NCBI GenBank assembly: GCA_965229605.1
Contig: OZ245892.1
Coordinates: forward strand, 1,911,238-1,975,237
Direction: 5' to 3'
From: Alphaproteobacteria bacterium
GTDB taxonomy: Bacteria > Pseudomonadota > Alphaproteobacteria > CBDDJK01
DNA length: 64,000 nt
The notes under the pieces were generated by a model. The model was not told where the DNA came from. It was given only the letters and a program-made list of their open reading frames with translations, and did no database searches. The first letter of the stretch is position 1; every line of letters begins with the position of its first letter. Below, one piece after another: positions 12,866 to 37,306 of the stretch. The translations under genes and the position numbers were made by a program.

Positions 12866-14020
12866 ATGTTCACCACCCGATTTTTGCCTTTATCGCTGCC
12901 TGCAAGTCTTGTGGCGACCTTTTTAATGCCCGTCAATATTTTCGCACAGGATGTTATGGTTACGATCAAGCCGCTTCATTCATTGGTCAGTGGCGTGATG
13001 GGGTCAACCGGACAGGCAGGCCTGATTGTGGATGATGCTGTATCACCGCATGATTTTCAGCTTAAACCTTCGCAAGTCAAGGCTGTTCAGGATGCACGGG
13101 TGATTTTTTATATTGATAATGATTTTGAAACCTTTTTACGACGCGCTTTTGACATTACGTCCGAGGATGTTCGTAAAGTGGCGGTTGCCGGGCTGGATGG
13201 TCTGAAAACCTATTCCATTCGTGAAGGCGGTGGCTGGGAGGGCCATGCCCATGATCACCATGGACATGAGGATGAGCATGACGATCATGATGATCACGAC
13301 AAACATGGACATGATGATCATGATGATCACGACAAGCATGATCATGACAAACATGCGCACGATGACCATGATGATCATGGCAAACATGATCATGACAAAC
13401 ACGCGCATGAGGATCATGATGAGCACGACAAACATGATCATGACAAACACGCGCATGAGGATCATGATGAGCACGACAAACACGCGCATGAAGATCACGA
13501 GGATCATGAAACAGACCTGCACCTGTGGCTTGATCCTGCCAATGCCAAGGTTATGGTGGATCATATCGCGCAGGAGTTAAGCGCGATCTATCCTGAAAAT
13601 GCTTCTGTCTATACGGAAAATGCAAGCAGCTATACAAAAAGACTGGATGCGCTGCATACAGAACTTCAAAGCAGCCTGCGCAATGTGCAAGACAAACCCT
13701 ATGTGGTTTTTCATGATGCCTATCAGTATTTTGAAGCCGCCTATGGGTTGAATGCCGTTGGGTCCATTACCTTTCAGCCGGATGAATCTCCGTCTCCGGC
13801 CCGGCTTCAGGAAGTCAGCCAGCGCATCAAGGAGACCGGGGCGACCTGTGTGTTTAAGGAGCCACAATTTTCGGATCGGCTGGTTCGGGTTGTGGTTGAG
13901 GGCACCTCTGCCCGAAGCGGCACGCTTGATCCTTTAGGGGCGGGGCTTGAGAATGGTCCTGATCTTTATATCGCGTTGCTTGAAGATTTGGCGAGCAATC
14001 TTCGGAGTTGTTTGAATTAG
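12866..14020 (+). CDS. znuA: Zinc ABC transporter substrate-binding protein ZnuA with a ~95-aa His/Asp-rich repeat loop
   Basis: Cluster 9 solute-binding protein. The loop reads HAHDHHGHEDEHDDHDDHDKHGHDDHDDHDKHDHDKHAHDDHDDHGKHDHDKHAHEDHDEHDK... and is encoded by degenerate DNA repeats at about 13246-13513. Confidence 0.85.
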   Translation: MFTTRFLPLSLPASLVATFLMPVNIFAQDVMVTIKPLHSLVSGVMGSTGQAGLIVDDAVSPHDFQLKPSQVKAVQDARVIFYIDNDFETFLRRAFDITSEDVRKVAVAGLDGLKTYSIREGGGWEGHAHDHHGHEDEHDDHDDHDKHGHDDHDDHDKHDHDKHAHDDHDDHGKHDHDKHAHEDHDEHDKHDHDKHAHEDHDEHDKHAHEDHEDHETDLHLWLDPANAKVMVDHIAQELSAIYPENASVYTENASSYTKRLDALHTELQSSLRNVQDKPYVVFHDAYQYFEAAYGLNAVGSITFQPDESPSPARLQEVSQRIKETGATCVFKEPQFSDRLVRVVVEGTSARSGTLDPLGAGLENGPDLYIALLEDLASNLRSCLN

Positions 14021-14801: not shown

Positions 14802-15494
14802 TCAATGGTCTGATCGGTCAATCAGAAAGCTGACCACCGTGCGCGCATTGGCACTGTCCCAATCGGCCTCGCCAATCAAGCTGGCGACAATCTGGCCATT
14901 GCGGTCAACCAGCAGGCTTGTCGGGAAGGTATCGACGGCAAACCGCTCAATTCCGGTTGCGCCCAATGTGCCCACGTCCTGAAACATAGAGATATTGGAC
15001 ATCCGCAACCGTTGCCAGACCTGCAAGGCAGCGCGCTGGTCCTGGGGTAGGTCGAGCGACAAGGCAATCACCTGAAAATCCTCTTTGTCAAAATCCCCCT
15101 GGAGTTGATTCAGGCCGGGGAGTTCGGTCAGACAAGGCACACACCAGCTGGCCCAAAAGTTAATCAGAGTCACCCGGCCTTTGGTGATATCGGCCAGATC
15201 GCGGTTTTGCCAGCGACCATGGTGCAATTCTTCAACCTGATGCGAAAGGACGGGGAAGGGCTGATCACGCCAGACCAGCGGCTTATGCGTCCCTTCAAAG
15301 TCGGGCAGGCCATCGGGTCCAAACTGGCTGCTTCTTGAATCCAGATAAATCCAGCCGCCCAGTGCCAGCGCAAAGGTGACGATGACGAAAACGATTCCGG
15401 CAAACAGATTGGTATCGGACGCCGGTTTGGACTCGGACTCGGCTGTAGACTCGTTGGCTTGAGCATTTATTTTGGATTGTTGCACATCAAACAT
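14802..15494 (-). CDS. Thiol:disulfide interchange protein, TlpA/CcmG (DsbE) family
   Basis: Thioredoxin fold with WASWCVPC active site, preceded by a TM anchor. The start may be the ATG at 15494 (MFDVQQ) or the upstream ATG at 15569. Confidence 0.7.
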   Translation of the reverse strand: MFDVQQSKINAQANESTAESESKPASDTNLFAGIVFVIVTFALALGGWIYLDSRSSQFGPDGLPDFEGTHKPLVWRDQPFPVLSHQVEELHHGRWQNRDLADITKGRVTLINFWASWCVPCLTELPGLNQLQGDFDKEDFQVIALSLDLPQDQRAALQVWQRLRMSNISMFQDVGTLGATGIERFAVDTFPTSLLVDRNGQIVASLIGEADWDSANARTVVSFLIDRSDH

Positions 15495-15547
15495 TGTCTC
15501 TATTCTTACCGTTCTCTTGTGACTTATACTCTCTTGTGGCCTATGTT

Positions 15548-17251
15548 CTACGGCCTGGCAAGAGAACAAGCCCGGTTGAAGGCCGAGGTAATCGCCCGCA
15601 AGGCAGCTGCTGTGATATTTGGATCCATCCCTGCCCCGCCAACAATACGTTTATCCTTCAAGCTGGTTTCAATATAACAAAAGGCTTTCGCTTCTGATCC
15701 AAAGCCGATTGCATATTCCTCATAGTTCAAAAAAGACAAATGCAGATTGCTGTGATTTGTCAAGGCCTGAAAATAGGCGTCTATCGGCCCGTTTCCATAG
15801 CCGGTGATTTGCACGGCCTTGCCGTTGTCTTCTATGTTCGCCGTCACATGCCGTGCGCCTTTATGTTTATTTTCACCATCCGTCAGCACTGCCATATGGT
15901 CAATAAAGCGATAAGGGCTGGTCGCATCCAGATAGTTTTCGCAGAAAATCTGGTAAATAGCGGCGGCACTCAGCTCCTTGCCGGTCTGATCGGTGACATC
16001 CTGAACAATCTGGCTAAATTCAATTTGCAGATTGCGCGGCAGACGGATCCCATAATCGGTTTCAAGCAAGTAGGATATCCCGCCTTTGCCTGATTGCGAA
16101 TTGACCCGGATCACCGCTTCATAGGTCGCGCCGACATCCGCCGGATCAATCGGCAGATAAGGCACATCCCAGGTCTGGCTGTTGGATTCAGCCATCGCCT
16201 CCAGGCCTTTTTTAATCGCATCCTGATGGCTGCCGGAAAAGGCCGTAAAGACCAGATCACCCGCATAGGGATGGCGCGGATGCACCGGAATCTGGTTGCA
16301 ATATTCAACCAGCTTGCGCATGTCAGGGATATTGGAAAAATCAAGCATTGGGTCAACCCCGGTCGCCATCATATTCATCCCCAGCGTCACAATATCAACA
16401 TTGCCGGTGCGCTCGCCATTGCCAAAAAGCGTGCCTTCAACCCGCTCGGCCCCGGCCATCTGGGCAAATTCGGCTGCCGCAACCCCGGTGCCCCGGTCAT
16501 TATGTGGATGAACCGACAAGATCAACCGCTCCCGCTGGCTAAAATGCCGGTGCATCCATTCAATAGAATCAGCATAGACATTCGGGGTCGCTACCTCGAC
16601 CGTTGCCGGTAAATTGATAATACAGGGCTTTTCGGCGGTTGGCTGCCAGACATCCATCACCGCTTCACAGACCTCCAGCGCATAATCCAGCTCGGTCTGC
16701 GTGTAGGATTCAGGCGAATATTGAAACCGCCAGTCGGTTTCTGGCCGGGCAGCGGCCTGTTCTGCCACCCATTTTGCGCCATCGGTGGCAATTTTCATGA
16801 CACCTGCGCGGTCCTGTTTAAAGACAACCCGACGCTGGGTGGTCGAGGTTGAATTATACACATGGACAATCGCCTGTTTGGCCCCTTTCAAGGAGTCAAA
16901 AGTGCGTTCGATCAGTTCCGGGCGGGCCTGGGTCAGGACCTGCACGGTCACATCTTCCGGAATCAAATTTTCTTCAATCAGGGTGCGGGCAAAATCAAAA
17001 TCTGTCTGCGAGGCCGCCGGAAAGCCAATTTCTATTTCCTTAAAGCCCATGGCGACCAGAAACAGGAAAAACCGCCGTTTGCGTTCTGCCCCCATCGGTT
17101 CGATCAGGGCCTGATTGCCATCGCGCAAATCAACCGAGCAAAAAATCGGTGCTTTTTCAATAAGCTGCCCAGGCCAGGTCCGGTCTGGAAGGTTATGGCG
17201 GTCAAACATCCGGTATTTTGAACCGGATGATTTTGAAATGCGGTTATTCAT
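15548..17251 (-). CDS. leuA: 2-isopropylmalate synthase, long LeuA form
   Basis: 567 aa. SVDLRDGNQALIEPM and HPHNDRGTGVAAA motifs, and a C-terminal regulatory domain. Confidence 0.9.
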   Translation of the reverse strand: MNNRISKSSGSKYRMFDRHNLPDRTWPGQLIEKAPIFCSVDLRDGNQALIEPMGAERKRRFFLFLVAMGFKEIEIGFPAASQTDFDFARTLIEENLIPEDVTVQVLTQARPELIERTFDSLKGAKQAIVHVYNSTSTTQRRVVFKQDRAGVMKIATDGAKWVAEQAAARPETDWRFQYSPESYTQTELDYALEVCEAVMDVWQPTAEKPCIINLPATVEVATPNVYADSIEWMHRHFSQRERLILSVHPHNDRGTGVAAAEFAQMAGAERVEGTLFGNGERTGNVDIVTLGMNMMATGVDPMLDFSNIPDMRKLVEYCNQIPVHPRHPYAGDLVFTAFSGSHQDAIKKGLEAMAESNSQTWDVPYLPIDPADVGATYEAVIRVNSQSGKGGISYLLETDYGIRLPRNLQIEFSQIVQDVTDQTGKELSAAAIYQIFCENYLDATSPYRFIDHMAVLTDGENKHKGARHVTANIEDNGKAVQITGYGNGPIDAYFQALTNHSNLHLSFLNYEEYAIGFGSEAKAFCYIETSLKDKRIVGGAGMDPNITAAALRAITSAFNRACSLARP

Positions 17252-17320
17252 ATCAAGGCCTTATGTCTTCGCTTTCGCGATGTGAAATCTTTTGCTATTC
17301 CATAGCAATCGCCGTGCCGT

Positions 17321-18337
17321 ATGACAAATCAGCATTTTAAGCTCAAGAAACAAGACATGGTCACCTATAAAAAAGATACCCGTAGAAAAGATAGTGGGGA
17401 TCGTCAGGCCCCTGTGCAGCTGGTGGCGATTGGCGAGGTCATGGCCGAGCTTTCAGACATGCAGGAACGCCCCCGGCAAGCGGTGAGTCTTCGCGGGCAT
17501 TTTGGCGGTGATGTCTTTAATACAGCGGTCTATCTGGCCCGTATTCTTTTGGAAAATACAACGCACAAAAGCTATTCGGTCGCTTTGGCCTCCCGGATTG
17601 GCGAGGACCCTTTCAGCCTTAAACTGCGGGCGTTTTTGCAGGAAACCGGCATTGACCAGTCCTGTCTTGTCACCGAACCGGGCGGACGGACAGGGCTTTA
17701 TCTGATTGAAATTGATAAAAAGGGGGAGCGGCGGTTTCACTACTGGCGCGGACAAAGCCCGGCCCGTTCCATGTTTCAAAAAAACATCGCACCAGAGACC
17801 GATCATCTGGCAGATTTTGATGTCTATTATATCAGTGCCATCAGCCTGGCGGTCTGGTCGCCGTCTGCGCGGGACCATATTCTGTCTTTTCTGGACCGCC
17901 GCCGACAGGACGGGGCACTGGTGGCCTTTGATACCAACTACCGCCCCGCCTTATGGGAAAACCCGGCAGTTGCCCGCACAGTGATTGAACAGGCCATGCA
18001 GGTTGCCAGCCTGGTCCTGCCTTCTCACGAAGATTTGATGAAAATCTATGAAACAGAAGATGAACCGGAAAAGCTGATAAAAAACATGCGGCAAATGACC
18101 AAAGCAGATATTGTCCTGAAAACAGGCGGCGGCGCGATTTATACAGATATTGACAATATTCCGTTTACTTTTACGCCGGATCAAATCCCGCAGCCGGTTG
18201 ATACCACCGGGGCTGGCGATTCCTTTAATGCCGCGCTGATCGCTGCTCGGGTGATGGGAAAAAGCCTGAGCGAACAGCTGGAGGCCGGTCATCGTCTCGC
18301 CGCACAAGTGATTATGCACCCCGGCGCCATAATATAG
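17321..18337 (+). CDS. PfkB-family sugar kinase, 2-dehydro-3-deoxygluconokinase-like
   Basis: DTTGAGDSFNAALIAA (the PfkB anion-hole motif) and a GG dipeptide. Confidence 0.7.
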   Translation: MTNQHFKLKKQDMVTYKKDTRRKDSGDRQAPVQLVAIGEVMAELSDMQERPRQAVSLRGHFGGDVFNTAVYLARILLENTTHKSYSVALASRIGEDPFSLKLRAFLQETGIDQSCLVTEPGGRTGLYLIEIDKKGERRFHYWRGQSPARSMFQKNIAPETDHLADFDVYYISAISLAVWSPSARDHILSFLDRRRQDGALVAFDTNYRPALWENPAVARTVIEQAMQVASLVLPSHEDLMKIYETEDEPEKLIKNMRQMTKADIVLKTGGGAIYTDIDNIPFTFTPDQIPQPVDTTGAGDSFNAALIAARVMGKSLSEQLEAGHRLAAQVIMHPGAII

Positions 18338-18488
18338 GTGCTATAATATAAGCACAATTAGACAAATTTATTGACGTTTATCCCTCGTTCACCTAAAAAT
18401 TCATGCATGATTAATATAGAAAAATTTTTGATTTTGAAGAGTTGTTAAATGTAAGAATTTGGCAATGTAAAAATTTAATGGGCGGGCC

Positions 18489-19137
18489 ATGTCAGAACTG
18501 ACAATAGATATTTTTATGTGCCGAAGCAGGAGCCTTTAGCAAAATTGAAAGCCAACATGATGAGCATTCCCTCTTTGGCGTGACAGATGGCAAGGCCGTT
18601 GGCACCTATCTTGAACAAAAATTTCAGAAATTCCTTGCCAGAAAATACAGCTATATACCGTGAAGTTCTGCAAAAGGCATCGACTTTCCAGAATTGGGCG
18701 TTGACCTTAAAGTCACAAACATCAAACACCCTCAGTCTTCGTGCCCATATCGCTCGGCCAGACAGAAAATATACGGAATTGGCTACGGATTACTGGTTCT
18801 TTGCTATGAGAAAACTGATAATCTGGAAAATTCAACAACCAGGTTAAACATCATTCACACGATTTTCATCGATTCTGATCGCACAGCCGACTTTCAGACG
18901 ACATCAGGATTGCTCAGAATCCTTGAAAATGACGGAAATGAGGACGACCTTACAGGCTTCATGTTTGAGCGCAATTTTCCTATTGATGATATAGAGGCCG
19001 GGAATCTTGCGAAAGAACTTCTGCAAAATCCGCCTAAACTTGGATATTTGACTATTTCCAATGCTTTACAATGGCGTCTCCAGTACAAAAGAGTCCTCAC
19101 GGAAGCAGGGAATGTTTCTGGAATTAGAAGGTTGTAG
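18489..19137 (+). pseudogene. Decayed PD-(D/E)xK-like type II restriction endonuclease gene, cognate to the downstream methyltransferase
   Basis: One reading frame spans 18508-19137 with a single in-frame TGA at 18661-18663. It encodes ...FGVTDGKAVGTYLEQKFQKFL...GIDFPELGVDLKVT..., a plausible D...(D/E)xK nuclease core. This frame has no ATG; an ATG at 18489 lies in the -1 frame and would join after a one-base change in the T5 run at 18511-18515. The frame ends 3 bp before the methyltransferase start. Confidence 0.4.
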
Positions 19138-19139
19138 AG

Positions 19140-20597
19140 ATGATCCATCAAGTCGAGTTTGGGGACTTTCAAACATCCCGGGATTTGGCAGACCGTGTGT
19201 GTGAAAAGCTGAAAGAGGCAGGGCTTTATCCGACTTCTGTCATTGAGCCAACGTGCGGTCTTGGGAATTTCACTGAATCAGCACGAAAGTCCTTTTCCAC
19301 GGCTAGAGAATTTCGCGGGTTCGAGATTGATCCTGATTACGTTAACAGGGCCAGACAACGGTTTGCCGATGATAATTCGGTAGAGATCATCGAGTGCGAT
19401 GTCATGCAAGAGGGATTGTTTCCAACAAACAATATACCCAAAAACTGCTTAATACTTGGCAACCCGCCATGGACAACCAATTCAACGATGGGATGCATCA
19501 ATGGGGCCAATCTGCCTGAAAAAAGTAATATTTACGGATTGCAAGGGCTAGATGCTCTTACAGGCAAGAGTAATTTTGATATTTCTGAATGGATGCTGAT
19601 GCATTTTACAAAGCTGCTGATCGGAACCGATGGCTATCTGGCCATGCTGGTTAAAACTTCTGTGGCACGGAAAATCATCAACCACCTCTTCAAAAGCAAG
19701 ACAAGCCTTCGGCATATTTCGCTGCATAAAATTGATGCTATGATTGAGTTTAATGTGTCTGTAGATGCCTGTTTACTCATTGTTTGTTTTTCTGCAACAA
19801 AGGCGAGTGTGCTCAGAAGCTGCAAGATTTATAATAGCCTTGAACAAAAGGCCCCCGCTGCTGTGATTGGATGGCGGCATGGAAAACTTATTTCTAACCC
19901 GGATACGTTTGATCGACTTTCAGACAGGTATCTCGCCTGCTCAAAACCGGAAAACCCCTGGAGGTCGGGAATGAAGCACGATTGCTCCAGAGTCTTCGAG
20001 TTGAAAAGGCAGGGCAACAGTCTGGTTAATGGCTATGGGGAACCTGTGGATGTTGAAGAGAAATTTTTGTTCCCTCTCATGAAAGGCACCGATCTGGCCC
20101 TCACAAGAGATATTAGCAGATGGGTAATATGCCCGCAAAGAGAAGTCGGTGAAAATACAGAACGGCTTAAAATTCTTGCGCCAAAACTATGGGCATATCT
20201 TGAATCATATTCAAAAGAACTGGCGGCACGGCGAAGCAGGATTTATATGAACAAGCCGAATTTCTCAGTTTTTGGAATAGGCTTATATTCTTTTCAACCT
20301 TGGAAAATTGCCATTTCTGGACTCCATAAATCATACGGCTTCAGACTGGTGGAGCCATACGAAAACAAACCTGTCCTTTTTGATGACACCTGTTATCAGA
20401 TTTCTTTTGCAGACAAGGCAAAGGCAAAGCGTGTCTTTAAGAAAATTATGTCACAGCCCTGTATTGAGTTTCTGGAATCAATGACTTTCTGGGATAATAA
20501 AAGGCCTATTACAGCCGAAATATTAAATCTGCTCTGCATTGACGACTATTCGCAGCCGCATTTCAATTTGCCTATGGGTGAAAGCCAGAGTGTATAA
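19140..20597 (+). CDS. N6-adenine-specific DNA methyltransferase, gamma class (M.TaqI / Eco57I-like)
   Basis: Motif X (FQTSRDLADRVCE), motif I (VIEPTCGLGNF) and, about 60 aa later, motif IV (LILGNPPWTT), in the order seen in M.TaqI. The C-terminal half would be the target-recognition domain. A GAAGG ribosome-binding site precedes the ATG. Confidence 0.75.
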   Translation: MIHQVEFGDFQTSRDLADRVCEKLKEAGLYPTSVIEPTCGLGNFTESARKSFSTAREFRGFEIDPDYVNRARQRFADDNSVEIIECDVMQEGLFPTNNIPKNCLILGNPPWTTNSTMGCINGANLPEKSNIYGLQGLDALTGKSNFDISEWMLMHFTKLLIGTDGYLAMLVKTSVARKIINHLFKSKTSLRHISLHKIDAMIEFNVSVDACLLIVCFSATKASVLRSCKIYNSLEQKAPAAVIGWRHGKLISNPDTFDRLSDRYLACSKPENPWRSGMKHDCSRVFELKRQGNSLVNGYGEPVDVEEKFLFPLMKGTDLALTRDISRWVICPQREVGENTERLKILAPKLWAYLESYSKELAARRSRIYMNKPNFSVFGIGLYSFQPWKIAISGLHKSYGFRLVEPYENKPVLFDDTCYQISFADKAKAKRVFKKIMSQPCIEFLESMTFWDNKRPITAEILNLLCIDDYSQPHFNLPMGESQSV

Positions 20598-20638
20598 CCG
20601 TTCCATCCAAAAGATAAACGATGTATCAGCGCGATCAG

Positions 20639-21073
20639 CTATTGCCTGAGTTCACGCGGCTGTTTCACCCGGATCAGATAGCCTTCTTTAAGTTTGAAAG
20701 AAAACTCGGCACTGCCCCAGGGTGGATATCTCACATCAGAACATTCAAAGCCGCTATCCTTGATTTCGTCTCTGATATTGCCAAGGTCTGATACGCAGAT
20801 AATAATCTCAATCCCCTTACCGCCTTCACCCGGTTCTGGCAGTACCCAATGGCTCTCACTAGATTTATTCTTCGATGGAGAAAATAACATCAGGTCGAAG
20901 TGAGCCGGATGTCTCAACTGCCGCCAGCCAGGGTTTTCTTCAATCAATGAAAAGTTGAACAGCTTGCAGAACAAATGCGCATATTCGTCATAATGCTCCG
21001 TATAAAGTTCGATTTGCACCATTTCCCGCTCGTGCTTGTCCGCAAGCGTATGAATTGATGTTGTATTTGTCAT
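20639..21073 (-). CDS. VOC (glyoxalase / bleomycin-resistance) family protein
   Basis: 144 aa with ...GIEIIICVSDLGNIRDEIKDSG... and a C-terminal PWGSAEFSFKLKEGYLIRV, the pattern of a VOC beta-alpha-beta-beta-beta module. Low GC like the islet. Confidence 0.45.
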   Translation of the reverse strand: MTNTTSIHTLADKHEREMVQIELYTEHYDEYAHLFCKLFNFSLIEENPGWRQLRHPAHFDLMLFSPSKNKSSESHWVLPEPGEGGKGIEIIICVSDLGNIRDEIKDSGFECSDVRYPPWGSAEFSFKLKEGYLIRVKQPRELRQ

Positions 21074-21102
21074 GGCTGATTCTTCTCTTTAATCTGTGAA
21101 CG

Positions 21103-22503
21103 ATGTATCAATCCCCAGATAGTGACTCTATAAACATCAAGGCCCTGTTTTCCCGATCAATGACGGAAAACTGGCCTTGTACAACTGATGGAACGCCCCA
21201 AAACACCCCACATATCGGCCTTGCCTGTTCCGGTGGCGGCGATTCAATGGCACTGGTCTGTCTGGCGCAAAGCTGGTGTCAGGAACACCGCATACAGCTT
21301 CATGTGGCGGTTGTCGATCATCTGCTGCGCCCGGACTCAGGCAAAGATTCTCTGGCGACACAGCAATGGCTGGATGCACGCGGGATAAAAGCCGATATTC
21401 TGCGCGATTCATCCTCTGCCCCGAAAAACAGCAGATTGCAGGAAAAAGCCCGCTCCTATCGCTACAAGCTGCTTGGCGACTGGATGGAGCAAAAAAATCT
21501 GTCCATTCTGCTGGTTGGCCATAATTTTGATGATCAGGTTGAAACAATCCTGCTGCGCCTGTCTCGCGGCAGTCATTGGCGCGGGCTGAAAGGTATGGCC
21601 GGATCAAGCCTTCTGTCGCCTGATGGCCTGCTGTCCACTCCCCCCAAATATATTCTGCGCCCGCTGCTTTCCTGTCGCCGTGACCGCTTGCGCCAGTTCT
21701 TGAATGATCAGGATTGGCCCTTTTTGAACGACCCGGCAAATGACAATCCAACCTTTACCCGCATCTGGTGGCGGCAACATCTGCCGCACTTTGCAAAAAC
21801 CGACATCAATGAGGATTCATTGACAAGACTTTCAGACCTTGCAAAGCGAATGGATGCACTGCGCCAGACCCGGCTTCATTTACTCTGCAACCGGCGTCTA
21901 TGGATGCTGCCCGGCGGTGCCGTGCGTGCAGACCATGGGCTTTTTCACGATGCCGGACCTGATCTGGGCAGCGAGTTACTGCGTGGCCTGCTGACTTTTC
22001 TTGGCACAAGGACTCACGGTCCACGCCAAGACGCCGTTGACCGGCTTTACCATAAAATCTGCAGTGCGACCTCTTCCACAAAACCGGACGCAACTCTTCA
22101 CGGCGTACGCCTGATCACAGACCAACAGGGCTTGCTCTTTTTACGCGAAAATCCTGCCCCGCCCGTAAAATTACAAAAATTAAAATTACAAAAACTCCCC
22201 ATTATCTGGGATCAACGCTATCGCCTCTATGGAGAAGACTTCTCTACCCTCCACCAATGGACTTTGGGCGCAATCGGTCAAAACCCGCTTGATGAAAAGC
22301 TAAAAAAACAGGCTCAACTCCCCGCAAAAGTTCTGAAAACCCTCCCCTGCCTGCGCAACCCGCAAGGCGAAATCAGACATATTCCCGACCTCGACTATTA
22401 TCACCCAGACCAAACCAATAAAGAAAGAACCGCACTGGAAAATCTCTCGCTGGTTTTTTCGCGGTCTTCGCCCTTTTCTTTTCCACTCTCGCGGCTTATA
22501 TAA
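21103..22503 (+). CDS. tilS: tRNA(Ile)-lysidine synthetase
   Basis: PP-loop [13 protein letters not shown] (SGGxDS), with a conserved position upstream of ftsH. The start may be a downstream ATG. Confidence 0.8.
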
Positions 22504-22544: not shown

Positions 22545-24515
22545 ATGAATGTATCGAAAAAGAACCTGCTGACCTGGCTTGTCATCCTGGTGACCATCGC
22601 CTTCCTCTATAACATGTTCGACACCAATAATCAGCAAACCGGAAATGTCATCAGCTATTCAGAATTCCTTAATCAGGTCGAGCTCGGAAATGTCCGTAAC
22701 GTCACCATAGACGACGATACACTCGCCGGGACCTATGTCGGCGGCGGCACCTTTAATACCTATGCCCCCAGCGATCCCGACATGATCAGCAATCTGCGCG
22801 AACGCAACGTCTCTATCGAAGTCAGCCCGCCCGATAGCGGCATGCCTACCCTGCTGGCCATCCTGATCAACTGGTTCCCGATGCTGCTGTTGATCGGGGT
22901 ATGGATTTTCCTGTTTCGCCAGATGCAAGGCGGCGGACGCGGGGCCATGGGCTTTGGCAAATCACGCGCCCGGCTGCTGACCGAACAATCTGGCAAGGTC
23001 ACCTTTGAAGATGTTGCCGGGATTGATGAATCAAAACAGGAATTGCAGGAAGTCGTTGAATTTCTAAAAGACCCGCAGAAATTCTCGACACTTGGCGGCA
23101 AGATTCCAAAAGGGGTGCTGCTGATTGGCCCGCCCGGTACCGGGAAAACGTTGACGGCGCGCGCCGTTGCTGGCGAAGCCGATGTGCCTTTCTTCACCAT
23201 TTCCGGCTCTGATTTTGTTGAAATGTTTGTCGGGGTCGGGGCCAGCCGGGTGCGCGATATGTTTGAACAGGGCAAGAAAAGCGCGCCCTGCATCATCTTT
23301 ATTGATGAAATTGACGCGGTTGGACGGCATCGCGGGGCCGGGCTTGGTGGCGGCAATGACGAACGTGAACAAACGCTCAACCAGTTGCTGGTTGAAATGG
23401 ACGGCTTTGAATCCTCACAAGGCGTGATCATTATCGCCGCAACCAACCGGCCCGATGTGCTGGACCCGGCCTTGCTGCGGCCTGGTCGCTTTGACCGGCA
23501 GGTGGTTGTTCCCAACCCCGATATCAATGGCCGGGAAAAAATCCTGCTGGTTCATATGCGCGATACGCCCTTGGCGCCGGATGTCAGTGCCAAGGTGATT
23601 GCCCGTGGCACCCCCGGCTTTTCCGGGGCTGATCTGGCCAATCTGGTCAATGAAGCCGCTTTGCTGGCAGCCCGGCGCAACCGGCGTGTGGTCTCGATGC
23701 GGGAAATGGAAGATGCCAAGGATAAAGTCCTGATGGGGGCCGAACGCCGCTCGCTCGCCATGTCGGAAGAAGAAAAGAAACTCACTGCCTATCACGAAGC
23801 CGGTCATGCGCTGGTCGGCCTCAAAGTCCCGGGCAATGACCCACTTCATAAAGTGACGATCATCCCGCGCGGGCGGGCTTTGGGGGTCACCATGAACCTG
23901 CCGGAACGCGACCGGCTGGGCTATAAAAAATCGGAAATGACCGCCAAACTCGCCATGATTTACGGGGGACGCGAAGCTGAAGACATCATTTTTGGTGCAG
24001 AACAGGTCACGACCGGGGCTTCAAACGATATCATGCAGGCTACCCGCATGGCCCGGGCGATGGTCACTGAATACGGAATGTCCGATAAACTCGGGGCTTT
24101 GCGCTATAACGAAAATCAGGACGAGGTTTTTCTTGGCCATTCAGTTGCCAGGCAGCAAAATATCTCGGAACAGACCGCGCAGCTGATTGATGAAGAAGTG
24201 CGCCGCCTCTGCGAAACTGCCCGCAAAAAAGCCCGCGAAATTCTGGATGGCTGTCTCGATGAACTCCACCTGCTTTCAAAGGCTCTGCTGGAGCATGAAA
24301 CCTTGTCCGGGGAAGAAGTGGACCGCCTGCTGCGCGGCGAATCTATCCGGGAGGAAGATGAATCCGGCAGCACACCGGCTGCTCCCTCGACCTCGGCCTT
24401 TCCGCAATCGGGCGAAAAAAGCGGCAGCAAGACCAGAAAGAAATCCAGCCGGAAAAACCCTGCCGGATCAGAAGACGCCCCTGATCCCGATGATGCAAAG
24501 CCGACTCCGGCTTAA
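22545..24515 (+). CDS. ftsH: ATP-dependent zinc metalloprotease FtsH
   Basis: Two N-terminal TM segments, AAA Walker [16 protein letters not shown] zinc site, and an acidic C-terminal tail. 656 aa. Confidence 0.95.
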
Positions 24516-36953: not shown

Positions 36954-37306
36954 GCGGACGTGGTGGAATGGTAGACACAAGAGACTTGGCAACCATGTTG
37001 AGTGCCTTTTGGGAAACCTTGAGGGTAGAACTGCTCAAATTCGGGGAAACCTTAACAGGTGAGGCTGATGGCAATCCCGAGCGAAGCCCGCAAGTAGCTG
37101 TTATATATAGCCGTTATGCGTGTAACAGTTATGGGGAACGTGTAGAGACTAGACGGGCAGCACCTACGGCACAAGCCAGGGTGAAGGGATAGTCCAGACT
37201 ACAAACGCGGCAGGTTGATGACTTGTGGCGGCAGTGAAAGCTGTGGTGGTATGAAAATCTCTCGATCGATATGATCGTGCGGGTTCGAGTCCCGCCGTCC
37301 GCACCA
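36954..37306 (+). tRNA. tRNA-Leu(UAA) gene interrupted by a group I intron. Exon 1 is 36954-36987, exon 2 is 37254-37306, and the CCA is encoded.
   Basis: Acceptor GCGGACG/CGUCCGC, D-arm UGGUGGAAUGGUAGACAC, anticodon stem AGAGA/UCUCU, loop C-U-U | A-A-A-A, a long variable arm CGAUCGAUAUGAUCG, and T-arm GCGGGUUCGAGUCCCGC. It is near-identical in layout to bacterial tRNA-Leu(UAA). Confidence 0.8.
36988..37253 (+). ncRNA. Group I self-splicing intron (266 nt) in the anticodon loop of tRNA-Leu(UAA), between U34 and A35
   Basis: The exon ACUU can pair with intron GAGU (about 37000-37006), giving a U.G at the 5' splice site. Core P7-like elements are present: GAGACUAGACGGGCAGC and GGAUAGUCCAGACUACA. 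The terminal nucleotide is G (37253). No ORF lies inside. Confidence 0.7.

What the first reader, a model, noticed from the sequence alone, without database searches (positions are those of the whole stretch)
18338..21100. Low-GC islet with a relic restriction-modification pair: a decayed nuclease gene and an intact TaqI-like N6-adenine methyltransferase
A roughly 2.7 kb segment at about 40% GC is wedged between a PfkB kinase gene and tilS. The flanks are otherwise conserved high-GC housekeeping context. The islet carries a gamma-class N6-adenine methyltransferase (motifs X, I and IV in M.TaqI order). It is immediately preceded, with a 3-bp gap in the same orientation, by a reading frame with a PD-(D/E)xK-like core that is no longer intact. 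It also carries a convergent VOC-family gene. No integrase, transposase or tRNA flank is present. This suggests either an old acquisition or a composition-deviant native locus.
Basis: partly seen in the sequence, partly recalled or inferred. Interest (0 to 1): 0.6.

Follow-up and report, generated by a model that had tools for sequence, protein, structure and literature searches.

The report
Restriction-modification cassette with dead nuclease
A 2.3-kb acquired gene pair for a restriction enzyme and its protective DNA methylase sits between two housekeeping genes; here the restriction gene has recently been knocked out while the methylase survives, which is an ordinary, well-understood way for such systems to decay.

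Summary
Window 18358-20634 is the lowest-GC 2.3-kb stretch of the window (0.425 against 0.534). It carries an NspV-family (TTCGAA) type II restriction gene followed 2 nt later by an intact M.TaqI-like N6-adenine methyltransferase gene.

The restriction gene is dead. It has a GGA>TGA nonsense at codon 58, upstream of the catalytic D65/D72/K74, and an extra T at codon 9.

Eleven related contigs (about 95% identical; ten from one metagenome, plus the window's source) show every state at the same pfkB|tilS junction:
- seven have an intact R-M pair;
- three have a broken R with an intact M, from two independent events. The window's nonsense is shared with an independent assembly, so it is real;
- one has no R-M at all.

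The convergent VOC-family gene is present at that empty site and is strongly constrained. It is resident, not cargo.

R has dN/dS 0.04 against intact alleles, so its inactivation is recent rather than an old relic. The null allele lies in a 930-bp tract nearly identical between genomes that are otherwise 4-6% diverged, which points to spread by recombination.

This is a new member of a known kind, with a tidy population snapshot of R-first decay. Interest is low to moderate.

The parts
17321..18337 (+). pfkB-family sugar kinase gene. This is the conserved left flank.
   Evidence: Pfam PF00294 E 1.9e-43. It is present next to the junction in all related contigs.
18323..18357 (.). Left junction. 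The 3' end of pfkB (GGCGCCATAATATA) is repeated in tandem (GGTGCTATAATATA). Put another way, 10 bp (TATAATATAA) sit inside the small palindrome GTGC|GCAC that directly follows pfkB at the empty site. Homology to the empty site ends at about 18357.
   Evidence: Direct repeat D15. Alignment to the empty-site contig L088.
18358..20634 (+). The R-M cassette, a 2277-bp segment that is present or absent among related genomes. It has GC 0.425, no mobility gene, and no convincing terminal repeats or target duplication.
   Evidence: At L088 the whole segment is replaced by about 3-4 bp between pfkB and the VOC gene. GC statistics. Repeat scan.
18358..18488 (+). AT-rich non-coding leader of the cassette, with one weak sigma-70-like site at 18371-18400.
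   Evidence: Promoter scan found sites no more often than in shuffles. The leader is 100% identical among five metagenome contigs. It is not conserved in the cassettes of unrelated contexts.
18489..19137 (+). Pseudogene of an NspV-family type II restriction endonuclease (215 codons when intact). Lesion 1 is one extra T in the run 18511-18515 (T4>T5), a frameshift at codon 9. Lesion 2 is GGA>TGA at 18661-18663, which changes the invariant G58 to a stop, upstream of the catalytic D65...D72-x-K74.
   Evidence: Translations. NCBIfam NF052465 E 1.1e-95. A 98%-identical intact orthologue, P0001, was found. DNA alignments. Invariant residues. Predicted fold.
19140..20597 (+). Intact gamma-class N6-adenine DNA methyltransferase (485 aa), M.TaqI-like, the cognate partner of the dead nuclease. 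It is now a solitary methylase.
   Evidence: PADLOC MTase_II E 1.8e-156. Profile match to M.BseCI E 2.2e-08. AF2 pLDDT 85.6. Foldseek top hits are M.TaqI at E 3.6e-12. dN/dS is 0.25-0.30. It shows no window-specific deviation at highly conserved columns.
20639..21073 (-). 144-aa VOC (glyoxalase/bleomycin-resistance) superfamily gene. It is resident and is not part of the R-M cassette.
   Evidence: It is present next to pfkB at the empty site. dN/dS is 0-0.08. The family profile hits VOC structures at E 4.2e-07. 7 of 14 family members hit PF00903. It is absent beside the cassette in other contexts.
21103..22503 (+). tilS, the conserved right flank, followed by ftsH at 22545-24515.

Best explanation
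A two-gene type II restriction-modification cassette of the NspV family was acquired horizontally by this alphaproteobacterial lineage. It sits between pfkB and a resident VOC gene, upstream of tilS. The order is R then M, on the same strand, with a 2-nt spacer.

In intact relatives the system would work as follows. The 215-aa PD-(D/E)XK nuclease cuts unmethylated TTCGAA. The 485-aa M.TaqI-like enzyme uses SAM to put N6-methyl on an adenine of that site and so protects the host.

In the window the nuclease gene has been inactivated by a nonsense codon at position 58, upstream of the catalytic residues, and by a +1 frameshift at codon 9. The methylase gene is intact. The locus now encodes only a solitary methylase.

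Losing R first is the only safe order of loss for such an addictive pair. The null allele appears to have moved between strains by homologous recombination.

Shown here: gene identities, folds, the lesions, the presence/absence/null polymorphism, and recent purifying selection on R.

Inferred: TTCGAA specificity, continued M activity, co-transcription, and the recombinational spread.
For: R identity:
- NCBIfam NF052465 E 1.1e-95, above its curated cut-off.
- The precomputed Pfam family is PF27258 'NspV'.
- PADLOC REase_II E 1e-98.
- D65, D72 and K74 are invariant in 22 homologues.
- NspV recognises TTCGAA (PMC2779907).

M identity.

Lesions. The same TGA occurs in the independent 70x contig L089. 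There are 2 lesions in 648 bp of R against 0 in 7986 bp of six neighbouring genes (Fisher p 0.0056).

Recent decay: 26-27 synonymous against 4 non-synonymous differences from intact alleles, dN/dS 0.04.

Polymorphism at the same junction:
- intact pair in 7 contigs;
- an independent frameshift at codon 60 in L087;
- no R-M at all in L088.

Foreign origin:
- GC 0.425 against 0.534.
- The nearest other pairs (78% R, 66% M) lie in unrelated contexts.
- The family is widespread in cyanobacteria and occurs on small plasmids.

Recombination: a 930-bp tract (18296-19227) differs by 1 substitution and 1 indel between the window and L089, while the adjacent pfkB is 5.7% diverged.

TTCGAA is depleted: 2 sites against about 22 expected from dinucleotides, or 6-8 from higher-order Markov models.
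Against: - Specificity is inferred only from the family name and from high family conservation. No methylome or enzymology was available.
- TTCGAA depletion is not specific. A dozen other palindromic hexamers are equally or more depleted.
- M has a higher dN/dS (0.25-0.30) than housekeeping neighbours (0.01-0.05). It could therefore be under relaxed constraint, although values among R-intact strains are similar (0.13-0.25).
- The nonsense codon could reduce M expression through polarity. No promoter is supported above chance.
- The extra T lies in a homopolymer and is unique to the window, so it could be a sequencing error. This does not matter for the conclusion, given the shared TGA.
- There is no outgroup, so the direction of the L088 indel (ancestral empty site or later deletion) is unresolved. 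The next TilS homologue is 32% identical and the next LeuA 69%.
Confidence: 0.88

Rival explanations
1. The R-M system is intact and active in the organism, and the two lesions are assembly or sequencing errors.
For: The extra T lies in a T-run and is seen only in the window. The related contigs appear to come from a long-read metagenome assembly, where 1-bp indels are common; this is an inference from the contig names.
Against: The TGA is a substitution. It is shared with an independently assembled 70x contig whose flanks are 4-6% diverged from the window. Six neighbouring genes (7986 bp) have no disruption.
Confidence: 0.03
2. The segment is a native locus with deviant composition that was never transferred horizontally.
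For: It occupies the same position in 10 of 11 related contigs. The window allele is about as diverged from the other alleles (about 5%) as the flanks are. No mobility genes or clear terminal repeats were found.
Against: One related contig lacks exactly these two genes, with clean boundaries. The closest homologues outside the clade sit in unrelated gene neighbourhoods and in other phyla, and on plasmids. The segment has the lowest GC in the window, and GC3 is 0.37-0.45 against 0.53-0.63 in the neighbours.
Confidence: 0.05
3. The whole cassette is functionally dead. M is no longer expressed or active and is simply waiting to be deleted, as has happened in L088.
For: M dN/dS is 0.25-0.30, five to ten times that of neighbouring housekeeping genes. 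A nonsense codon early in the upstream gene may cause transcriptional polarity (inference). No separate M promoter stands out. With only about 2 TTCGAA sites per 64 kb, methylation has little to act on.
Against: The 1458-bp M ORF is intact in all 10 contigs that carry it, including the three with a broken R. dN/dS is well below 1. The window protein does not deviate from its R-intact relatives at any of 123 highly conserved columns. The catalytic NPPW and SAM-binding motifs are intact.
Confidence: 0.2
4. Loss of R is positively selected, and M is being domesticated as an orphan epigenetic methylase.
For: There are two independent R-null events in 10 cassette-bearing contigs, and the lesions lie 7 bp apart. 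The null allele is embedded in a near-identical 930-bp tract shared by diverged genomes. M is retained intact.
Against: Neutral decay plus ordinary recombination in a highly mosaic population explains the same data. Intact alleles show the same low-divergence pattern. Seven of ten copies are still intact. There are too few TTCGAA sites for broad regulation.
Confidence: 0.12

Closest known systems
NspV / BstBI / AsuII-type type II R-M systems (TTCGAA); Pfam PF27258 'NspV', NCBIfam NF052465
   Same: The R frame matches the family profile over its full length and above the curated cut-off. It shares the invariant D65/D72/K74. It is 62-78% identical to thousands of family members, and the adjacent partner is a about 480-aa methylase found next to them.
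   Different: The window copy is a pseudogene (nonsense plus frameshift). The host is an isolated alphaproteobacterial lineage rather than the cyanobacteria in which the named examples occur. Specificity was not measured.
M.TaqI (TCGA, gamma-class N6-adenine methyltransferase; PDB 2adm, 1g38)
   Same: The motif order is the same (X, I, IV = NPPW against NPPY). The best structural match covers both the catalytic and the DNA-recognition domain (Foldseek E 3.6e-12, TM 0.51/0.62). The presumed target TTCGAA contains the TCGA core.
   Different: Sequence identity is only 12-14%. The protein is about 65 residues longer than M.TaqI. Residues 113-144, after motif IV, are modelled with low confidence. 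Sequence-only searches barely detect M.TaqI (E 0.1-0.4).
M.BseCI (ATCGAT, PDB 7qw5)
   Same: It is the best sequence-profile match among solved structures (E 2.2e-08). The match covers motifs X to IV plus a short C-terminal stretch. Its target also has a TCGA core and is also methylated at N6 of adenine.
   Different: M.BseCI is 585 aa, and only the N-terminal about 140 residues align with confidence.
Solitary methyltransferases produced by decay of the restriction gene (discussed in Oliveira et al. 2014, PMC4176335)
   Same: An intact M sits next to a pseudogenised cognate R, with intact pairs in sister genomes.
   Different: That survey concluded that in-situ degradation is the minority route: only 9-13% of pan-genome families contain both states. 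This locus is therefore a clear example of the less common path.
Mobile R-M units without mobility genes (Furuta et al. 2010, PMC2853133)
   Same: A compact R-M pair is inserted between conserved genes, an empty site exists in a relative, and there is no integrase or transposase.
   Different: The long target duplications or flanking repeats described there are not evident. There is only a 14-bp tandem repeat of the pfkB end at the left junction.

Membership tests
NspV-family type II restriction endonuclease | Full-length match to the family profile above the curated cut-off | tested here: met
   The reconstructed frame scores 318.8 bits against NF052465 (cut-off 290), E 1.1e-95, covering profile positions 5-209 of 209. 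The intact orthologue hits PADLOC REase_II at 1e-98. The precomputed Pfam family is PF27258. The local Pfam copy lacks this model, so the fragments gave no hit.
NspV-family type II restriction endonuclease | PD-(D/E)XK fold with a catalytic D...(D/E)-x-K | tested here: met
NspV-family type II restriction endonuclease | Uninterrupted reading frame able to give an active enzyme | tested here: not met
   An extra T at 18511-18515 and TGA at 18661-18663. The longest downstream ORF (18694-19137) starts after D65.
NspV-family type II restriction endonuclease | Cleavage of TTCGAA | not testable with these tools
   The specificity comes from the family name and from PMC2779907. The site is depleted (2 observed against 6-22 expected), but so are many other palindromes.
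Type II R-M operon | Cognate R and M genes adjacent, a pairing that recurs in unrelated genomes | tested here: met
   R is followed by M with a 2-nt spacer here. The same pair occurs in L001-L004, L085 (4-bp overlap) and L086.
Gamma-class N6-adenine DNA methyltransferase (M.TaqI-like) | Motif order X - I - IV with (N/D)PP(Y/F/W) | tested here: met
   FGDFQT(S/P)..LA, then EPTCGxGNF, then GNPPW. These residues are invariant or nearly invariant in 24 homologues.
Gamma-class N6-adenine DNA methyltransferase (M.TaqI-like) | Two-domain M.TaqI fold | tested here: met
   Foldseek ranks 1-5 and 7 are M.TaqI chains, E 3.6e-12 to 4e-10, with 484-498 aligned columns.
Gamma-class N6-adenine DNA methyltransferase (M.TaqI-like) | Match to a curated DNA-methylase family model | tested here: inconclusive
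   PADLOC MTase_II PDLC03310 matches over the full length, E 1.8e-156. Pfam and NCBIfam give only sub-threshold hits to generic or rRNA methylase models. PF02384 is on record for only a few homologues.
Gamma-class N6-adenine DNA methyltransferase (M.TaqI-like) | m6A formed at the cognate site in vivo | not testable with these tools
   Needs a SMRT or nanopore methylome, or a protection assay.
VOC (glyoxalase / bleomycin resistance / dioxygenase) superfamily, for the 144-aa gene | Match to PF00903 or to solved VOC structures | tested here: inconclusive
   The window protein alone scores 16.6 bits, below the 20.6-bit cut-off. A 14-member family profile hits more than 20 VOC structures, with best E 4.2e-07. 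7 of 14 members pass as PF00903 hits. No structure was predicted for it.
Integrase- or tRNA-associated genomic island | Integrase or transposase gene, tRNA target, flanking direct repeats | tested here: not met
   Gene and Pfam tables for about 10 kb either side show none. ARAGORN finds nothing nearby. The repeat scan shows no terminal repeats.

The most novel reading that the evidence does not exclude
Loss of the nuclease is not neutral decay but a recurrent, favoured event in this population. On this reading, null alleles of R arise repeatedly (two events, 7 bp apart) and are passed between strains by short recombination tracts. This offers a safe exit from an addictive R-M pair and leaves a methylase that is kept for a host function.
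Probability: 0.12. Interest if true: 0.45.

Novelty: new member of a known kind. Interest (0 to 1): 0.25.

Why it matters
Taken alone, this is a routine annotation result: an NspV-type R-M pair whose nuclease gene is a pseudogene. The modest added value lies in the population context. One set of about 95%-identical genomes holds the intact pair, two independent nuclease knock-outs with the methylase retained, and a site with no cassette. The null allele also sits in a short, near-identical recombination tract. This is a clean natural illustration of the 'nuclease first' route by which addictive R-M systems are lost and solitary methylases arise. A large survey judged that route to be the minority one (PMC4176335). 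It also warns annotators that the 485-aa methylase family is sometimes labelled 'restriction enzyme NspV homolog' in public records.

Tried and rejected
1. Pfam scan of the two R fragments gave nothing. The local Pfam copy lacks PF27258. This was resolved with NCBIfam and PADLOC on the reconstructed or intact protein.
2. Exact look-up of the window's M found no contig, although the identical protein P0320 is in the cluster table from a 2.73-Mb NCBI/ENA contig. The source record could therefore not be read.
3. A genome-contig scan with TilS found no relatives. The scan with LeuA returned 80 loci, but the best was only 69% identical, and none carried pfkB, tilS, ftsH, R, M or the VOC gene within 10 kb. 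No outgroup is available, so the direction of the indel could not be polarised.
4. The TilS homologue search drops from 91-92% to 32% identity, which confirms how isolated the lineage is.
5. A search for terminal inverted or direct repeats, or a target-site duplication, at the cassette ends found only chance-level short matches. The exception is a 14-bp tandem repeat at the left junction. A possible 4-6-bp GCGCA-like duplication was judged too weak to claim.
6. TTCGAA avoidance as specific evidence for this system was rejected, because many other palindromes are equally depleted.
7. The promoter and terminator scan was not above shuffles.
8. The non-coding leader and trailer of the cassette are not conserved with the nearest foreign cassettes, so no mobile-unit ends could be defined.
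9. A literature search for the metagenome accession found nothing.
Full report
**Observation**

The region 18338-21100 is compositionally distinct. In 400-bp windows its GC is 0.40-0.47, against 0.50-0.60 on either side. ORF listing and profile searches give this order:
- pfkB, 17321-18337, + strand;
- a broken frame;
- a 485-aa ORF, 19140-20597, + strand;
- a convergent 144-aa ORF, 20639-21073, - strand;
- tilS, 21103-22503;
- ftsH.

Three-frame translation of 18338-19139 shows one frame that reads through from about 18517 to TAG 19135-19137, apart from a single TGA. Its natural ATG (18489) lies in another frame. The spacer to the ATG of the next gene is 2 nt.

**The broken frame is a restriction endonuclease gene**

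- A reconstruction of the frame scores 318.8 bits (E 1.1e-95) against NCBIfam NF052465, 'type II restriction-modification system restriction endonuclease'. This is above the curated 290-bit cut-off and covers essentially the whole profile.
- A homology search returned thousands of about 216-aa proteins at 62-78% identity, all carrying the precomputed Pfam family PF27258, named NspV. It also returned one 215-aa protein, P0001, at 98% identity.
- P0001 hits PADLOC's REase_II model at 1e-98.
- In 22 diverse homologues D65, D72 and K74 (the GIDFPELGVDxKV segment) are invariant, as are G58 and D33.
- NspV recognises TTCGAA (PMC2779907).

**The lesions**

DNA alignment with four intact orthologous genes shows exactly two disabling differences in the window:
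- one extra T in a T-run (T4>T5, 18511-18515), which shifts the frame at codon 9;
- GGA>TGA at 18661-18663, which turns the invariant G58 into a stop, upstream of all three catalytic residues.

Six neighbouring genes (7986 bp) have no disruption relative to the same relatives (Fisher p 0.0056). The cluster table revealed a 57-aa product, P0309. Its contig, L089 (70x coverage), has the same TGA but not the extra T. The nonsense mutation is therefore real and older. The frameshift is a later second hit, or possibly an error. In either case the gene is dead.

**The decay is recent**

After removing the extra T and skipping the stop, the window's R differs from intact alleles by 26-27 synonymous and only 4 non-synonymous changes (dN/dS 0.04, dS 0.21). 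The gene was therefore under strong purifying selection for almost all of that divergence.

**The methyltransferase**

- The 485-aa protein has motif X (FGDFQTSRDLA), motif I (IEPTCGLGNF) and motif IV (GNPPW), in gamma-class order. These residues are invariant or nearly so in 24 homologues.
- Pfam and NCBIfam give only sub-threshold generic hits.
- PADLOC's REBASE-derived MTase_II model PDLC03310 matches over the full length at E 1.8e-156.
- A family profile finds M.BseCI (ATCGAT) at E 2.2e-08 among solved structures.
- An AlphaFold model (pLDDT 85.6) has M.TaqI as its top Foldseek matches across both domains (E 3.6e-12, TM 0.51/0.62).
- The window protein deviates from the wider family at 5 of 123 highly conserved columns. 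All five deviations are shared with the R-intact sister alleles, where M must work.
- M dN/dS is 0.25-0.30 for the window against relatives, and 0.13-0.25 among R-intact strains.

M is therefore most likely functional. That step is inferred, not shown.

**Related genomes**

P0001 is encoded on four contigs of one ENA metagenome assembly, in exactly the window's context: leuA - pfkB - R - M - 144-aa gene - tilS - ftsH. These contigs are 94-96% identical to the window over 14-20 kb.

Looking up TilS homologues gave two more contigs:
- L087 has an independent 1-bp deletion in codon 60 of R, plus D33H, and an intact M.
- L088 lacks both R and M. There, pfkB is followed after 17 bp by the 144-aa gene.

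Counting the cluster members, the eleven contigs are ten from the metagenome plus the window's source. They split as follows:
- seven have an intact R;
- three have a broken R, from two independent events;
- one has no cassette.

Junction alignments place the indel at window 18358-20634, which is 2277 bp. This is the lowest-GC stretch of that length in the window. No terminal repeats, target duplication or mobility genes were found. The only feature is a 14-bp tandem repeat of the pfkB 3' end at the left junction.

**Origin**

- The nearest R-M pairs outside the clade (R 78%, M 66% identical) lie in unrelated neighbourhoods and without the VOC gene.
- The M family is common in cyanobacteria. 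It also occurs on Nostoc, Aeromonas, Klebsiella and Lactobacillus plasmids and in one phage-like contig.
- The non-coding leader and trailer of the cassette are not conserved with the foreign copies.
- Together with the empty site and the GC deficit, this supports horizontal acquisition.
- The acquisition is not recent. The window's allele is about 5% diverged from the others, like the flanks.
- There is no outgroup, because the next TilS is 32% and the next LeuA 69% identical. I therefore cannot say whether L088 is an ancestral empty site or a later deletion.

**The VOC gene**

- It is present at the empty site.
- It is under strong purifying selection, with dN/dS 0-0.08.
- It is absent next to foreign copies of the cassette.
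- It belongs to a rare family: 28 representatives among 1.84 billion.
- The family's profile matches many VOC structures, with best E 4.2e-07, and 7 of 14 members hit PF00903.

It is a resident gene with somewhat low GC (0.455). It is not part of the R-M unit.

**Population pattern**

Among five cassette-bearing metagenome contigs, R plus its 130-bp leader are 0-0.3% diverged, while the flanks are 3-8% diverged. Divergence rises through M, from 1.0% in its 5' half to 1.9% in its 3' half.

The window and L089 share the null allele in a 930-bp tract (18296-19227) that holds one substitution and the T indel. The adjacent pfkB is 5.7% diverged and M is 2.3-3.5% diverged. The flank distance matrices are mosaic.

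The simplest reading is frequent homologous recombination, which moves short tracts, null R alleles included, between co-occurring strains. This is an inference.

**Site statistics**

TTCGAA occurs twice in 64 kb. About 22 sites are expected from dinucleotide composition, 7.7 from a third-order Markov model and 5.8 from a fourth-order model. This fits long exposure to such a system. It is not specific, however: GCATGC, CAATTG, CCGCGG, GCCGGC, CGATCG, CTCGAG and others are equally or more depleted.

**Mechanism (committed view)**

In intact relatives the nuclease cuts unmethylated TTCGAA, and the methylase protects host sites by N6-adenine methylation. In the window only the methylase remains. 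Loss of R before M is the order expected for an addictive pair, because the reverse order would be lethal wherever sites exist.

Confidence is about 0.88 for the overall identification. It is about 0.7 each for TTCGAA specificity and for continued M activity.

**Comparison and novelty**

This is a new member of the NspV-type R-M family, in a decayed state. Origin of a solitary methylase by in-situ decay of R is a known route, although a large survey found it to be the minority one (PMC4176335). R-M units that insert without mobility genes are also known (PMC2853133). Nothing here is new in kind. The value is a clean three-state snapshot. Interest is 0.25.

Noticed in passing
window 36954-37306 (+); intron 36988-37253: This is a tRNA-Leu(UAA) gene interrupted by a 266-nt group I intron in the anticodon loop, at the classical cyanobacterial/plastid position. 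Here it sits in what looks like an alphaproteobacterial genome. The Rfam RF00028 hit is exactly at the gathering score (50 bits, E 9.9e-10). Standard ARAGORN misses the gene. It is found when introns are allowed or after in-silico splicing.
   Followed up: partly
whole window: Palindromic hexamers are pervasively avoided: GCATGC 1 against 45 expected, CAATTG 1 against 37, CCGCGG 1 against 32, GCCGGC 3 against 41, CGATCG 1 against 22, CTCGAG 0 against 11.5. This suggests a long history with many R-M systems. In contrast, TGATCA is about 4-fold over-represented (81 against 21) and is absent from 15263-21530.
   Followed up: partly
window 13252-13440: Eight TGATCA sites lie within 190 bp, in a stretch that aligns to two places in relatives. 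It is inside the ZnuA-like gene, whose length varies from 371 to 387 aa among strains. It is probably a His/Asp-rich repeat of variable length.
   Followed up: no
window 18661-18663 and L087 about 3507: The two independent R-inactivating lesions lie 7 bp apart: the nonsense at codon 58 in the window and L089, and the 1-bp deletion in codon 60 in L087. There is no homopolymer at that position. The chance of this is roughly 2%. Whether it is a hotspot or a coincidence is unexplained.
   Followed up: no
window 21103-22503 and L001 12614-13945: tilS evolves unusually fast here. It is 6-14% diverged at the nucleotide level among strains whose ftsH is 3-6% diverged, and the L001 allele is an outlier at 12-14%. 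Called start sites differ (415-447 aa, against a 466-aa ORF in the window). The next homologue in 5.8 billion proteins is only 32% identical.
   Followed up: no
L086 1094-3141: In an unrelated Logan contig the pattern is reversed. The NspV-like R is intact (207 aa), but the methylase is split into 58-, 62- and 322-aa pieces. This is either assembly error or an R kept without its M.
   Followed up: no
whole window / source organism: The lineage is very isolated. The best LeuA match among 185,579 GTDB species representatives is 69% (Pacificispira spongiicola), with no shared synteny. All close relatives come from a single ENA metagenome assembly (ERZ25074195), which holds at least ten co-occurring contigs at about 95% identity. 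The window's M is identical to P0320, from a 2,727,875-bp NCBI/ENA contig.
   Followed up: partly
public annotations of M homologues (P0158, P0235; plasmid AP018319.1): Several database records label the 480-aa methyltransferase homologue as 'type II restriction enzyme NspV(-like/homolog)'. This looks like a swapped R/M annotation that has been propagated.
   Followed up: no
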